A DNA stretch of 64,000 nucleotides, from the NCBI RefSeq assembly GCF_046105845.1, contig NZ_CP151004.1. One strand, given 5' to 3'. The stretch comes from Escherichia coli. GTDB lineage: Bacteria; Pseudomonadota; Gammaproteobacteria; Enterobacterales; Enterobacteriaceae. Every line of letters starts with the position of its first letter. Within the stretch, counting starts at the first letter, position 1. This document shows, one piece after another, positions 9,001-12,000 of this stretch. The position numbers are program-made.

Positions 9001-12000
9001 GAATAAATGATTTCTGAAAAGTCCGGTAGCGGAACATTACCGCCACCGGGAGAATTTGCACGTTAGCCGCCGAACTGGTCAGGATCGGGGCCGAGACGCT
9101 TGCCCTGATCGAGTTTTGCAATTTCGCCAAGTTCGTCTTTGTCGAGACGGAAATCCCAGACATCAAAGTTTTCGACAATGCGTGAAGGTGTGACCGATTT
9201 TGGGATCACCACCAGGCCGCTATCCAGATGCCAGCGGATAACAATCTGCGCCGGGGTTTTGCCGTATTTATCTGCCAGATCGCGAATGACTTTCTGATCG
9301 AAAACACCTTTCCCACCTTGCGCTAATGGACTCCAGGATTCGGTCTGGATTTTGTGTGTCGCGTTCCAGGCATGTAGCTGGCGTTGTTGCATCAGCGGGT
9401 GAAGTTCGATCTGGTTTATCACAGGCGTCACGCCAGTTTCATCAATCAGGCGTTGCAAGTGATGGATCTGGAAGTTGCACACGCCGATGCTTTTGATTAA
9501 TCCCTCTTTTTGCAATTCGATCATGCCTTTCCATGCTTCGACATAATGGTCGATAGCGGGAACGGGCCAGTGCATTAAGTAGAGGTCGATATAATCAAGC
9601 TGGAGTTTTTTCAGGCTGTCGAGCAGGGCTTCGCGGGGGCGCTTGTGGTCGTCGTTCCACAGTTTAGTGGTGATGAACAGTTCTTCTCTGTTGACTGAGG
9701 CATTTTTCAGGGCTTTGCCGACACCTTCTTCGTTCTTATAGGCCGCGGCGGTATCAATCGAGCGATAACCCACGTCTAACGCTTTTTGAATGGCGGTGAT
9801 TACTTCCTCATTACTTGCTTGCCAGACGCCCAGTCCCAACTGGGGCATGACATTGCCATCCTGTAGCTTAATAACGGTTGGATTAGCCATACGTTCCTCC
9901 TTTATATGAACTCACCGGAGCAGGCTCCGGTGAGGTGTTGTGAACTTAAGTCTGGACGAAATGCCCGAAAACGAAAGTTTGAGGCGTAAAAAGCTTAGCG
10001 GGCGGCTTCGTATATACGGCGGCTGACATCCAGCGTAATGTCATGATTTTCGCCCAGTTGGGTCATGCCGTGCTCTTCCAGTTTTTTCAGCAAAGCCGGG
10101 ATGGAGCTGCCGTCCAGACCGTAGTCGGAGAGGTGGGTCGGCACGCCTAATTGCTCAAAGAAATTGCGGGTTGCGGCAATCGCGGCGTCAATACGCTCAT
10201 CGTCAGAACCTTCAGTGATGTTCCAGATGCGTTCAGCATATTGCAGCAGCTTAGCGCGCTTGGTATCGCGTTTTTCATTCCACAGTGCAGGCAGGACGAT
10301 AGCCAGTGTTTGCGCGTGATCCAGACCGTGCATCGCAGTCAGTTCATGGCCCAGCATATGCGTTGCCCAGTCCTGCGGTACGCCAGCGCCAATCAAACCG
10401 TTCAGCGCCTGAGTCGCCGCCCACATGACGTTGGCGCGCACATCGTAGTTTTCTGGCTCTTTCAGGGCTTTCGGACCATCTTCGATCAGCGTCAACAAAA
10501 TGCCTTCTGCGAAACGGTCCTGAATTTTGGCATCAACCGGTTTGGTAACATACTGTTCCACGGTGTGCACAAAGGCATCCACTACACCGTTAGCCACCTG
10601 ACGCGGCGGCAGAGTGTAGGTATAAACCGGATCGAGCACGGCAAATACGGGTTGAACATGGGCTGAATGGAACGCCTGCTTGTCGCCTGTGGTTTTACGG
10701 GAGATCACCGCGCCTGCGTTGGATTCTGAACCGGTTGCTGGCAGCGTCAGCACACAGCCCATCGGGATGGCGCTTTTAATTTCTTTACCGCCCGTTTGCA
10801 GAATGTGCCACGGATCGATATTTTCCGGATAATTAGCCGCTGCGGCGATAAATTTGGTGCCGTCCAGTACAGAACCGCCGCCAACCGCCAGCAGGAAAGT
10901 CACTTTTTGTTCGCGAACCAGTTTCACGGCGTTCATCAGCGTTTCATAAGCCGGGTTTGGCTCAATACCGCCAAATTCCAGCACGTCCATGCCTTTCAGG
11001 GCATCCAGAACTTGATCGAGAACGCCGGTTTTTTTCACGCTGCCGCCGCCGTAGGTAATCAATACGCGAGCATCGTGAGGAATTTGTTCGCGTAAACCAG
11101 CGATTGCGCCTTTACCAAAAAGAATGCGGGTTGGGGTGTGCAGATTAAAGTTGTTCATTACTTGCTCCCTTTGCTGGGTCAATATGAGGGCAGAGAACGA
11201 TCTGCCTGATGTTTTTCATTGTGGTCGCCAGCGCCGTACCTCTCAATGCTCATTTCTGCCAATGTCTTGCCTATTTCTCCAGAGTGCTGGAGAAATGCTA
11301 CAAAATTGCGCACAATCAAATTGCCGCATTATTCCTAAGAAATTACGCGATATGAAACGTGAAGAGATTTGCCGCTTGCTGGCGGATAAAGTTAATAAAC
11401 TGAAAAATAAAGAAAAAAGTTTGTCAGAGCTGTTGCCCGATGTGCGTTTGTTGTATGGCGAGACGCCTTTCGCACGTACACCGGTAATGTACGAGCCTGG
11501 CATCATAATTCTCTTTTCCGGACATAAAATCGGTTATATCAATGAACGCGTGTTTCGTTATGATGCCAATGAATACCTGCTACTGACGGTGCCGTTGCCG
11601 TTTGAGTGCGAAACCTATGCCACGTCAGAGGTGCCGCTGGCAGGGTTGCGTCTCAATGTCGATATTTTGCAGTTACAGGAACTGTTGATGGACATTGGCG
11701 AAGATGAGCATTTCCAGCCGTCGATGGCAGCCAGCGGGATTAACTCCGCCACGTTATCAGAAGAGATTTTATGCGCGGCGGAGCGGTTACTCGACGTGAT
11801 GGAGCGACCACTGGATGCGCGTATTCTCGGCAAACAGATCATCCGCGAAATTCTGTACTACGTGCTGACCGGACCTTGCGGCGGCGCGTTACTGGCGCTG
11901 GTCAGTCGCCAGACTCACTTCAGCCTGATTAGCCGCGTGCTGAAACGGATTGAGAATAAATACACCGAAAACCTGAGCGTCGAGCAACTGGCGGCAGAAG

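What the first reader, a model, noticed from the sequence alone, without database searches (positions are those of the whole stretch)
9911..9934. Perfect 10-bp hairpin inside the yqhD-dkgA operon spacer
The palindrome sits between two co-oriented aldehyde-reductase genes and could set their relative expression by partial termination or transcript processing.
Basis: inference. Interest (0 to 1): 0.2.

Follow-up and report, generated by a model that had tools for sequence, protein, structure and literature searches.

The report
Conserved intercistronic RNA hairpin, yqhD–dkgA
A small stem-loop in the untranslated gap between two co-transcribed E. coli aldehyde-reductase genes is real and has been preserved by compensating mutations across about 20 enterobacterial genera, so it acts as an RNA structure, most likely a nuclease-resistant end-piece of a conserved spacer RNA (Rfam ES173) rather than a transcription stop; it is a fairly ordinary kind of operon feature.

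Summary
Window 9911-9934 is a perfect palindrome (11-nt arms, 2-nt centre) in the 104-nt yqhD–dkgA spacer of E. coli. On the mRNA (minus) strand it folds as 10 bp plus a CCUG loop, -18.8 kcal/mol. It is not chance: 10 such hairpins occur in the window against 0.37 in shuffles.

Across 71 Enterobacteriaceae spacers it is the only consensus structure. Nine of its 10 pairs show compensatory changes, and 90% of cells are paired against 30-57% when the partners are slid. G·U outnumbers A·C 27 to 4, which favours the sense RNA.

It is not a canonical terminator. The tail has a median of 1-2 U across genera, the Term-seq tables I could search list no 3' end in the spacer, and both proteins are induced about equally.

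The hairpin directly follows two sequence-invariant blocks (90-93% identity, like codon positions 1-2). Rfam calls that stretch ES173 sRNA, and its model ends inside the hairpin's 5' arm. ERIC insertions in four species separate the hairpin from dkgA's ribosome-binding site but not from the blocks.

Best reading: the 3' structural module of a yqhD-3'UTR/ES173 element, acting as an exonuclease barrier. The mechanism is inferred and has not been shown. This is a new member of a known kind, of modest interest.

The parts
9911..9934 (-). The hairpin. 5' arm 9934-9925 (CUCACCGGAG), loop 9924-9921 (CCUG), 3' arm 9920-9911 (CUCCGGUGAG).
   Evidence: perfect arms, -18.8 kcal/mol, z -6.0. (only consensus structure in 71 species, 9 of 10 pairs with compensatory changes, 90.4% of cells paired).
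9929..9992 (-). Match to Rfam RF02753 'ES173 sRNA' (full model 1-64, 99 bits, gathering score 90). Its last 6 nt are the first 6 nt of the hairpin's 5' arm.
9968..9977 (-). Conserved block A, CUUUCGUUUU (mean pairwise identity 0.90 across 71 species).
9946..9961 (-). Conserved block B, UUUCGUCCAGACUUAA (mean pairwise identity 0.93, with several invariant columns).
9988..9992 (-). Nearly invariant U-run 5 nt after the yqhD stop. It coincides with the 5' end of the ES173 model. GC|UUU fits the RNase E 'RN|WUU' preference; the motif is from my own knowledge and the cleavage is inferred.
   Evidence: T8-T10 nearly invariant.
9935..9945 (-). Linker between block B and the hairpin (about 11-13 nt in all species, sequence only moderately conserved).
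   Evidence: identity 0.54.
9901..9910 (-). Linker between the hairpin and the dkgA Shine-Dalgarno (UUCAUAUAAA). Its length is conserved at 7-10 nt but its sequence is not (identity 0.34). This is where ERIC elements inserted in four other species.
9888..9900 (-). dkgA Shine-Dalgarno GGAGG (9900-9896) and start codon AUG (9890-9888).
9995..11158 (-). yqhD coding sequence (upstream gene). Stop codon UAA at 9997-9995.
   Evidence: coordinates mapped from MG1655.
9063..9890 (-). dkgA coding sequence (downstream gene).
9016..9049 (-). The actual operon terminator, given for contrast. A 10-bp stem (9049-9040 with 9032-9023) is followed by ACUUUUC. The Term-seq 3' end at MG1655 3157494 maps to window position ~9019.

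Best explanation
The palindrome is a stem-loop that forms on the yqhD-dkgA transcript (window minus strand) and is kept by selection on base pairing. It is the 3' module of an ~85-nt conserved intercistronic element. That element starts just after the yqhD stop codon with a U-run, continues through two sequence-invariant blocks (the part Rfam calls ES173), then an 11-13 nt linker, then this hairpin. RNA polymerase reads through it, so dkgA is expressed from the YqhC-activated yqhD promoter. After the polycistronic RNA is cut downstream, the GC-rich stem most likely acts as a barrier to 3'-to-5' exonucleases. That would define and protect the 3' end of the upstream piece: yqhD mRNA and/or the small ES173 fragment released by a second cut at the U-run after the stop codon. 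This is the malE-malF type of operon-internal protective hairpin, or equivalently the 3' stem of a 3'UTR-derived small RNA. Shown here: the structure exists, it covaries, it favours the sense strand, it lacks a terminator tail, it stays with the upstream blocks when insertions occur, and both genes are co-induced. Inferred: the cleavage events, the exonuclease block, and any effect on the YqhD:DkgA ratio.
For: Structure under selection: RNAalifold on 71 species returns this hairpin as the only consensus structure, with 9 of 10 pairs showing double changes. 90.4% of cells are paired against 30-57% when partners are slid. There are 112 double-change cells against 35.8 in shuffles (0 of 500 reach the observed value), and the covariation score is 0.478 against 0.230.

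Sense RNA rather than DNA or antisense: 27 G·U pairs against 4 A·C mismatches. The sense fold is more stable in 26 of 60 distinct hairpins, the antisense in 12, Wilcoxon p = 0.01.

Present in all 72 standard-length spacers, mean -17.8 kcal/mol.

Belongs to the upstream unit: in L037, L042, L043 and L077 an ERIC-like repeat lies between the hairpin and the SD, while the hairpin stays 11-13 nt from block B. In K. pneumoniae, block B and the hairpin also persist.

A stable small RNA has been catalogued exactly upstream: Rfam ES173, 99 bits, ending inside the 5' arm. The two-hairpin unit folds at -27.8 kcal/mol, z -4.2.

Blocks A and B are as conserved as codon positions 1 and 2: 0.90 and 0.93 against 0.88-0.96, with third positions at 0.53.

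Read-through: YqhD rises 35-fold and DkgA 41-fold with vanillin, and both mRNAs rise in yqhC mutants.

The mechanism class is documented in E. coli operons (Dar & Sorek 2018, PMC5927463).
Against: No direct 3'-end evidence. The Adams 2021 Term-seq tables held here list no 3' end in the spacer, although they do list the one after dkgA. That argues against an abundant stable 3' end at the hairpin in those growth conditions. However, the operon is poorly expressed without aldehyde stress, and stored files may be truncated.

yqhD-dkgA is not in the held supplements of Dar & Sorek's differential-decay paper.

The ES173 annotation stops inside the 5' arm instead of after the hairpin.

The distance from hairpin to ATG is very constant at 18-21 nt, which would also fit a dkgA-leader role.

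The original ES173 paper could not be read.
Confidence: 0.4

Rival explanations
1. A dkgA leader element of the papBA type. RNase E cuts the operon RNA upstream of the hairpin. The hairpin then sits near the 5' end of a monocistronic dkgA mRNA and shields it from 5'-end-dependent decay, or otherwise tunes dkgA translation initiation.
For: The hairpin's 3' end lies 18-21 nt from the ATG and 7-10 nt from the SD in nearly all 72 standard spacers, although the linker sequence is not conserved. 5'-protective hairpins generated by RNase E are documented in E. coli operons. dkgA has been modelled as a putative CsrA target.
Against: Four species tolerate 85-135 nt ERIC insertions between the hairpin and the SD while keeping the hairpin next to the upstream blocks. 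All segments of the spacer are length-conserved, so the constant spacing is not specific to this linker. Predicted RBS accessibility is unchanged when the hairpin is deleted or its arms scrambled, 0.365 against 0.356-0.365. GGA is never fully within the loop (0 of 60) and overlaps it in 6 of 60 against 14 of 60 in the antisense control, so there is no CsrA-type site. Proteus has yqhD-dkgA only 29 nt apart with no hairpin. About 11-13 unpaired nt would precede the hairpin if cleavage occurred in block B.
Confidence: 0.2
2. A leaky intrinsic terminator. A fraction of polymerases stop at the hairpin, which sets YqhD above DkgA constitutively.
For: The stem is GC-rich and perfect, 10 bp, -18.8 kcal/mol. 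In E. coli the tail UUCAUAUA has 4 U in 8 nt, the same count as the tail of the genuine dkgA terminator, ACUUUUCA. Equal fold-induction of the two proteins is compatible with a constant leak.
Against: The terminator scan does not call it. Across genera the tail has a median of 1-2 U and only 3 of 72 have 5 or more, yet the hairpin is conserved and covaries, so the conserved function is not U-tract-dependent termination. No Term-seq 3' end is listed in the spacer, while the one after dkgA is detected.
Confidence: 0.12
3. The hairpin mainly serves as the structural 3' stem of a trans-acting regulatory RNA (ES173 plus hairpin). The invariant block B would be a seed or a protein-binding site. Protection of yqhD mRNA would be incidental.
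For: The architecture of a conserved single-stranded or weakly paired sequence followed by a covarying GC-rich 3' stem is that of 3'UTR-derived sRNAs. Blocks A and B are under codon-like purifying selection. The Rfam family type is 'Gene; sRNA'.
Against: There is no U-tail for Hfq. No Hfq, ProQ or RIL-seq mention of this locus was found in searchable text. No target is known. The upstream stem shows no covariation either way.
Confidence: 0.15
4. A DNA-level palindrome: a protein operator (for example a second YqhC site) or a cruciform- or repeat-type element.
For: It is a perfect 24-bp palindrome, the same size as the reported YqhC operator palindrome upstream of yqhD.
Against: The YqhC palindrome ATTTCTCCAG-N4-CTGGAGAAAT is unrelated in sequence. 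Arms change freely between genera while complementarity is kept, which is the opposite of what an operator does. G·U exceeds A·C, which points to RNA. It is single-copy in each genome, so it is not REP-like.
Confidence: 0.04

Closest known systems
Rfam RF02753, ES173 sRNA (from my own knowledge: one of the 'ES' candidates from E. coli RNA-seq, Raghavan, Groisman & Ochman 2011; the paper could not be read here)
   Same: Same locus and strand. The model matches window 9992-9929 at 99 bits, above the gathering score of 90. It covers the U-run and blocks A and B.
   Different: The model stops 6 nt into the hairpin's 5' arm and marks those positions as unpaired, so the hairpin is not part of the curated family. 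At gathering threshold the family reaches only Escherichia, whereas blocks plus hairpin are conserved in about 20 genera.
Operon-internal 3'-protective hairpins (malE-malF REP stabiliser; 'conserved internal RNA structures' of Dar & Sorek 2018, PMC5927463)
   Same: A stable, evolutionarily conserved stem-loop in the spacer of a co-transcribed gene pair. It has no terminator tail and allows read-through to the downstream gene.
   Different: It is not a REP repeat (single copy). No mapped 3' end or differential half-life is available for yqhD against dkgA.
Intra-operon 3'UTR-derived sRNAs (SroC from gltI-gltJ and GlnZ from glnA-glnL; SroC from my own knowledge, the GlnZ preprint seen)
   Same: A small RNA from the spacer after the first cistron of an operon. 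It has a conserved sequence core followed by a GC-rich 3' stem, and its 5' end lies near the stop codon at an RNase E-like site.
   Different: Those sRNAs end at terminator-like hairpins with U-tails and bind Hfq. Here there is no U-tail, and no chaperone or target is known.
Intrinsic (Rho-independent) terminators, for example the one after dkgA at window 9016-9049
   Same: A GC-rich perfect stem of similar size and energy: -18.8 against -20.5 kcal/mol.
   Different: There is no contiguous U-run and no mapped 3' end, and it is conserved without a U-tract in other genera.
papBA-type 5'-protective hairpin
   Same: A hairpin just upstream of the downstream cistron's ribosome-binding site in an operon.
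   Different: The hairpin stays with the upstream blocks when insertions occur. No processed 5' end is known.

Membership tests
Rfam RF02753 ES173 sRNA | Covariance-model score at or above the family's gathering score (90 bits) | tested here: met
   99 bits, model positions 1-64 of 64, at window 9929-9992 on the minus strand. This holds for the neighbouring stretch. Only 6 nt of the hairpin are inside the match.
Rfam RF02753 ES173 sRNA | The hairpin 9911-9934 is part of the modelled RNA | tested here: not met
   The model ends at ...CCUCACC and the structure line marks these positions as unpaired.
Intrinsic terminator | GC-rich stem-loop | tested here: met
   10 bp, 7 of them G-C, -18.8 kcal/mol.
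Intrinsic terminator | U-tract immediately 3' of the stem | tested here: not met
   E. coli has UUCAUAUA. Across 72 spacers the T counts in the 8-nt tail are 0:4, 1:23, 2:19, 3:12, 4:11, 5:3. The terminator scan does not call it.
Intrinsic terminator | Mapped RNA 3' end at the site | tested here: not met
   The Adams 2021 Term-seq supplements held here list only 3157494, after dkgA. There is no entry for yqhD or for the spacer. Caveat: low expression and possibly truncated files.
Operon-internal 3'-protective hairpin (malE-malF type) | Stable structure in a spacer that is transcribed through | tested here: met
   for stability. for co-induction of both genes by YqhC.
Operon-internal 3'-protective hairpin (malE-malF type) | Conservation of the structure across species | tested here: met
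Operon-internal 3'-protective hairpin (malE-malF type) | Decay-generated 3' end at the structure and a longer half-life for the upstream cistron | not testable with these tools
   No rifampicin-chase or 3'-end data under inducing conditions were available. The locus is absent from the held Dar & Sorek supplements.
3'UTR-derived Hfq-dependent sRNA | Terminator-type 3' stem with a U-tail, and Hfq binding | tested here: not met
   No U-tail. Hfq binding is not testable here, and no literature mention was found.
REP / BIME repeat | Multi-copy dispersed palindromic family | tested here: not met
   Median of 1 place per genome in 5,412 E. coli genomes, and 1 match in the window with up to 3 mismatches.
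YqhC operator | Sequence similarity to the palindrome upstream of yqhD | tested here: not met
   ATTTCTCCAG-N4-CTGGAGAAAT at 11273-11296 against CTCACCGGAGC-N2-GCTCCGGTGAG.
CsrA binding hairpin | GGA motif presented in the hairpin loop | tested here: not met
   0 of 60 distinct hairpins have GGA fully in the loop. 6 of 60 overlap the loop, against 14 of 60 in the antisense control.

The most novel reading that the evidence does not exclude
The whole ~85-nt unit (U-run, invariant blocks A and B, covarying hairpin) is excised from the aldehyde-stress-induced yqhD-dkgA transcript and acts as a regulatory RNA in its own right. The invariant block UUUCGUCCAGACUUAA would serve as a seed or a protein- or ligand-contact surface and the hairpin as its protective 3' stem. 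This would give the YqhC aldehyde-detoxification regulon a post-transcriptional arm conserved across Enterobacteriaceae. A still bolder version, that the blocks form a ligand-sensing cis-regulatory RNA for dkgA, is not excluded. It has no supporting expression platform, since SD pairing is no better than in shuffles.
Probability: 0.15. Interest if true: 0.55.

Novelty: new member of a known kind. Interest (0 to 1): 0.3.

Why it matters
yqhD and dkgA are workhorse aldehyde reductases in furfural, glyoxal and vanillin tolerance and in metabolic engineering. Their spacer turns out to carry a strongly constrained RNA element: codon-like sequence conservation in two blocks and a covarying hairpin across about 20 genera. 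Only a truncated, Escherichia-only version of it is catalogued as ES173. Knowing that the hairpin is a read-through RNA structure rather than a terminator tells engineers that the spacer should not be treated as inert. It also gives RNA biologists a defined candidate, with coordinates and natural variants, for an operon-internal stabiliser or 3'UTR-derived RNA linked to aldehyde stress. The kind of element is well known, so the gain is incremental unless a trans-acting function is found.

Tried and rejected
1. Long-range pairing of the post-stop sequence (ACGCCUC) with the dkgA SD, seen in the E. coli MFE fold. On the alignment only 56% of cells pair. The alignment-free pairing probability is 0.485 against 0.459 for composition-matched shuffles, p = 0.34. 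Rejected as a selected structure.

2. Hairpin as an insulator keeping the RBS open. Predicted accessibility does not change on deletion or arm scrambling. Rejected.

3. Second YqhC operator. The sequence is unrelated. Rejected.

4. REP or multi-copy repeat. It is single copy. Rejected.

5. CsrA loop site. No GGA enrichment. Rejected.

6. Internal sigma-70 promoter for dkgA in the conserved blocks. The scan finds none on the minus strand in the spacer. By inspection, no conserved -10 with A2/T6 and no sigma-E, sigma-32 or sigma-54 pattern is conserved across genera (inference).

7. Small ORFs. An antisense GTG-ORF in E. coli acquires an in-frame stop in Leclercia-type sequences. A sense GUG-uORF starting in the 3' arm is not frame-conserved in Enterobacter or Lelliottia (inspection). 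Rejected.

8. Covariation of the upstream ES173 stem. It is 81.5% paired but sequence-invariant, so the counts are uninformative.

9. Looking for genomes where the element is uncoupled from one gene. All 80 genome loci and all 13 genuine metagenome hits have the arrangement yqhD, element, dkgA. Proteus has the gene pair without the element, and Aeromonas has yqhD alone without it. So no decisive natural uncoupling was found.

10. Literature and datasets that gave nothing. Raghavan 2011 is not held. A text search for ES173 returns only unrelated primer and strain names. The Dar 2018 NAR, Conway 2014 and Herzel 2022 supplements are not held. The Kim 2012, Yan 2018 and Dar 2018 PLoS Genet supplements contain no yqhD or dkgA entry. 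Thomason 2015 and Miller 2009 are not held.
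Full report
LOCUS AND OBSERVATION

The window is Escherichia coli. A 301-nt stretch around the finding is at least 99% identical in 5,276 E. coli genomes and is annotated there as yqhD followed by dkgA. 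The 171-nt stretch around the spacer that I aligned to K-12 MG1655 is identical to it.

NCBIfam equivalog models identify window 9063-9890 (minus strand) as DkgA. The ORF ending at 9995 (minus strand) is the YqhD alcohol dehydrogenase, and the divergent AraC-type gene is yqhC. Both reductase genes are on the minus strand. The spacer is 9891-9994, 104 nt.

The repeat finder gives arms 9911-9921 and 9924-9934, 11 nt each, 100% complementary, with 2 nt between them. On the mRNA strand this folds as CUCACCGGAG-CCUG-CUCCGGUGAG: 10 bp plus a 4-nt loop, -18.8 kcal/mol, z = -6.0.

The pattern occurs once in the window and never in 100 shuffles. Perfect hairpins of at least 10 bp number 10 in the window against 0.37 in shuffles.

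WHAT SURROUNDS IT

Rfam release 15 places the family ES173 sRNA (RF02753) at 9992-9929 on the minus strand, full length, at 99 bits against a gathering score of 90. The match begins 5 nt after the yqhD stop codon at a U-run. It contains an imperfect stem-loop and ends at ...CCUCACC, six nucleotides into the 5' arm of the hairpin, which the model treats as unpaired.

So the hairpin abuts a catalogued RNA and is cut off by its annotation. From my own knowledge, the ES series comes from RNA-seq of E. coli (Raghavan, Groisman & Ochman 2011). That paper is not held, and no searchable paper discusses ES173.

After the hairpin come a 10-nt AU-rich linker (UUCAUAUAAA), a strong SD (GGAGG) and the dkgA AUG.

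COMPARATIVE EVIDENCE

A scan of species-representative genomes with DkgA returned 80 Enterobacteriaceae loci from about 20 named genera. yqhD is directly upstream in all of them, and 72 have a spacer of 98-117 nt.

I aligned the 70 distinct standard-length spacers with the window, 71 sequences in all. RNAalifold predicts exactly one consensus structure, this hairpin, with compensatory double changes at 9 of 10 pairs.

The explicit pair count gives 90.4% of cells paired, against 30-57% when the 3' partners are slid by 1-3 columns. There are 112 double-change cells against 35.8 +/- 6.0 in shuffles (0 of 500 reach the observed value). The covariation score is 0.478 against 0.230.

Many unrelated stem sequences occur, for example CAUCGUCGGAGG, CCAUCGGGGG, CUUACCGGGA, UACCCCGCAG and CCACCAGAGG. 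The signal therefore does not come from one inherited change.

G·U pairs (27) far outnumber A·C mismatches (4). The sense fold is more stable than the antisense fold in 26 of 60 distinct hairpins and less stable in 12, Wilcoxon p = 0.01. That points to the mRNA strand, with the caveat that the species are not independent.

Two stretches upstream behave quite differently from the hairpin. These are CUUUCGUUUU (9977-9968) and UUUCGUCCAGACUUAA (9961-9946). Their mean pairwise identity is 0.90 and 0.93, the same as codon positions 1 and 2 of the flanking genes (0.88-0.96), while third positions stand at 0.53. The hairpin arms are at 0.65, its loop at 0.32, and the linker to the SD at 0.34.

In summary, the spacer holds a sequence-constrained core followed by a structure-constrained hairpin. 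At Rfam's gathering threshold ES173 is found only in Escherichia, so the curated family is a narrow, truncated view of a family-wide element.

IS IT A TERMINATOR?

The consensus scan does not call it. The eight nucleotides after the stem contain 0-2 U in 46 of 72 spacers and 5 or more U in only 3. The conserved property is therefore not U-tract-dependent termination.

The Adams et al. Term-seq tables that are held list a primary 3' end after dkgA at MG1655 3,157,494, which is window ~9019. That lies inside the ACUUUUC tail of a 10-bp terminator at 9023-9049. No entry exists for the spacer.

DkgA and YqhD proteins rise 41-fold and 35-fold with vanillin (PMC6561319). Both mRNAs rise in constitutive yqhC mutants (PMC8262776). 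Transcription from the YqhC-dependent promoter must therefore pass the hairpin.

An honest caveat applies. In E. coli itself the tail has 4 U in 8 nt, the same count as the real terminator, though not contiguous. A small constitutive leak cannot be excluded.

WHICH GENE DOES IT SERVE?

Natural insertions help here. In four species (L037, L042, L043, L077) an ERIC-like repeat of 85-135 nt lies between the hairpin and the dkgA SD. The hairpin stays intact and 11-13 nt from block B.

In two Buttiauxella loci an ERIC-end-like 16-bp stem replaces the native hairpin. In another, two copies of the hairpin flank an insertion. K. pneumoniae keeps block B and the hairpin and has gained an extra hairpin plus U-run right after the stop codon.

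Proteus mirabilis has yqhD and dkgA 29 nt apart with only an SD. The element is therefore an Enterobacteriaceae-specific addition that dkgA expression does not need.

In silico, deleting or scrambling the hairpin leaves RBS accessibility unchanged, 0.365 against 0.356-0.365. Together these results favour assigning the hairpin to the upstream unit (the yqhD 3'UTR/ES173) rather than to the dkgA leader. The rather constant 18-21 nt distance to the AUG keeps the rival alive.

MECHANISM

The best-supported reading is that the hairpin is a read-through, nuclease-resistant stem. It would form the 3' boundary of the yqhD segment and/or of the ES173 fragment once the operon RNA is cut downstream. This is the malE-malF type of protective structure that Dar & Sorek showed to be common and conserved in E. 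coli operons (PMC5927463). Equivalently, it would be the 3' stem of an intra-operon 3'UTR-derived sRNA.

The ES173 5' end (GC|UUUUU) fits the RNase E preference RN|WUU (motif from my own knowledge), and the U-run is nearly invariant.

Shown: structure, covariation, strand bias, absence of a terminator tail, linkage to the upstream blocks, and read-through. Inferred: the cleavages, the exonuclease block, and any effect on the YqhD:DkgA ratio.

The lack of a mapped 3' end in the only accessible dataset is real counter-evidence. I put confidence at 0.4, with rivals at 0.2 (dkgA 5'-protective or leader element), 0.15 (primarily a trans-acting RNA), 0.12 (leaky terminator) and 0.04 (DNA-level site).

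REJECTED IDEAS

- A long-range pairing between the post-stop sequence and the SD, seen in the E. coli MFE fold, is not better than composition-matched shuffles.
- The YqhC operator palindrome at 11273-11296 is unrelated in sequence.
- The hairpin is single-copy, so it is not REP.
- GGA is not presented in the loop, so it is not a CsrA-type site, despite dkgA being a modelled putative CsrA target.
- No promoter is predicted in the spacer.
- Small ORFs on either strand are not conserved (inspection).
- The metagenome scan produced only the same gene arrangement.

VERDICT

The hairpin is a conserved sense-strand RNA structure attached to the ES173 element.

It is a new member of a known kind. The hairpin and the family-wide extent of the element are not in the curated family, as far as the sources I could search show. 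Interest is modest at 0.3. It would rise if the invariant blocks prove to be the seed of an aldehyde-stress-linked regulatory RNA.

Noticed in passing
window 9946-9977 (minus strand): Two spacer blocks, CUUUCGUUUU and UUUCGUCCAGACUUAA, are 90-93% identical across about 20 genera. That is as conserved as codon positions 1 and 2 and far above third positions (0.53). Both contain UUUCGU, 16 nt apart in the E. coli spacer. Their function is unknown. They form the body of Rfam ES173, and their stem shows no covariation because the sequence hardly varies.
   Followed up: partly
L037, L042, L043 and L077, spacer between the yqhD stop and dkgA ATG (locus position ~2260-2500): ERIC/IRU-like repeats (…AAGTAAGTGACTGGGGTGAGCGAGTGCAGCCAACGC…) are inserted in the linker between the hairpin and the dkgA SD, apparently in at least two independent lineages. 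The hairpin and blocks are retained.
   Followed up: partly
L072 and L076 (Buttiauxella), locus position ~2420-2470: The native hairpin is replaced by a 16-bp stem resembling ERIC termini (TTGCAGG…GCCAACGCCCCTGCAA). A strong hairpin is therefore still present at the same place.
   Followed up: no
L066 (Buttiauxella MAG), spacer of 269 nt: An insertion of about 165 nt is flanked by two near-identical copies of the hairpin (ACACCGGGTTTGCCCGGTGT and ACACCGGGCTTGCCCGGTGT). This looks like a duplication generated by the insertion.
   Followed up: no
L004 (E. coli strain E69), locus position ~2455-2482: The loop reads CAGG instead of CCUG, so the central two bases of the palindrome are reverse-complemented. 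This would be expected from a palindrome flip or template switch. The stem is also extended to 12 bp.
   Followed up: no
L202 (K. pneumoniae, labelled a plasmid but 5.37 Mb) position 3165-3230; also L080, L110, L124 and L176: Klebsiella and Raoultella spacers carry an extra hairpin right after the yqhD stop codon. In the Klebsiella-type sequences (L202, L110, L124, L176) it reads CACCUCUCC…GGAGAGGUG and is followed by UUUUUAC, which looks like a canonical terminator. Block A is partly replaced, while block B and the downstream hairpin remain.
   Followed up: partly
L205 (Proteus mirabilis) position 3152-3186: yqhD (62% identity) and dkgA (71%) are adjacent with only a 29-nt spacer (GUACUUAAAGGCAACUGGAGGUAUAUA) and no blocks or hairpin. 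The gene pair is therefore older than the spacer element.
   Followed up: partly
L198 (metagenome contig) position ~4461-4490: A natural deletion joins the sequence just after block B directly to dkgA codon 12. It removes the hairpin, the SD and the start codon, so this is probably a dkgA pseudogene.
   Followed up: no
L203 (Enterobacter hormaechei IncHI2 plasmid p49589CZ_VIM) position 1-1600: A conjugative resistance plasmid carries a decayed chromosomal fragment. yqhD is frameshifted, the spacer with blocks and hairpin is intact, and a dkgA-like region matches only weakly (about 45-51% identity, in two overlapping pieces). Nothing is annotated there.
   Followed up: no
window 11273-11296: A perfect 10-bp palindrome, ATTTCTCCAG-AGTG-CTGGAGAAAT, lies in the yqhC-yqhD divergent region. 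It corresponds to the reported YqhC operator. The yqhD promoter hexamers TTGAGA and CACAAT lie at 11246-11218 (minus strand).
   Followed up: yes
window 12255-12280: A perfect 10-bp hairpin (CGTTCCCGGT-ACAGCA-ACCGGGAACG) lies 4 nt after the yqhC stop, between the convergent yqhC and yghB genes. The minus-strand tail is U-rich (UAUUUAAUU), so it is a likely terminator for yghB and possibly a bidirectional one.
   Followed up: no
window 5262-5288, 15701-15729, 19508-19533, 26067-26092, 29759-29789, 34869-34890, 54005-54035: Seven further perfect hairpins of at least 10 bp occur in the window (10 in total against 0.37 expected by chance). I did not examine them.
   Followed up: no
L067 (record titled Chryseobacterium sp. 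18061): The contig carries a typical Enterobacteriaceae yqhD-element-dkgA locus (86-87% protein identity to E. coli). The record is probably mislabelled or contaminated.
   Followed up: no
window 11159-11182: The mechanical ORF for yqhD starts at a TTG at 11182 (395 aa). The annotated start is the ATG at 11158 (387 aa), which matches the NCBIfam profile from residue 9.
   Followed up: yes
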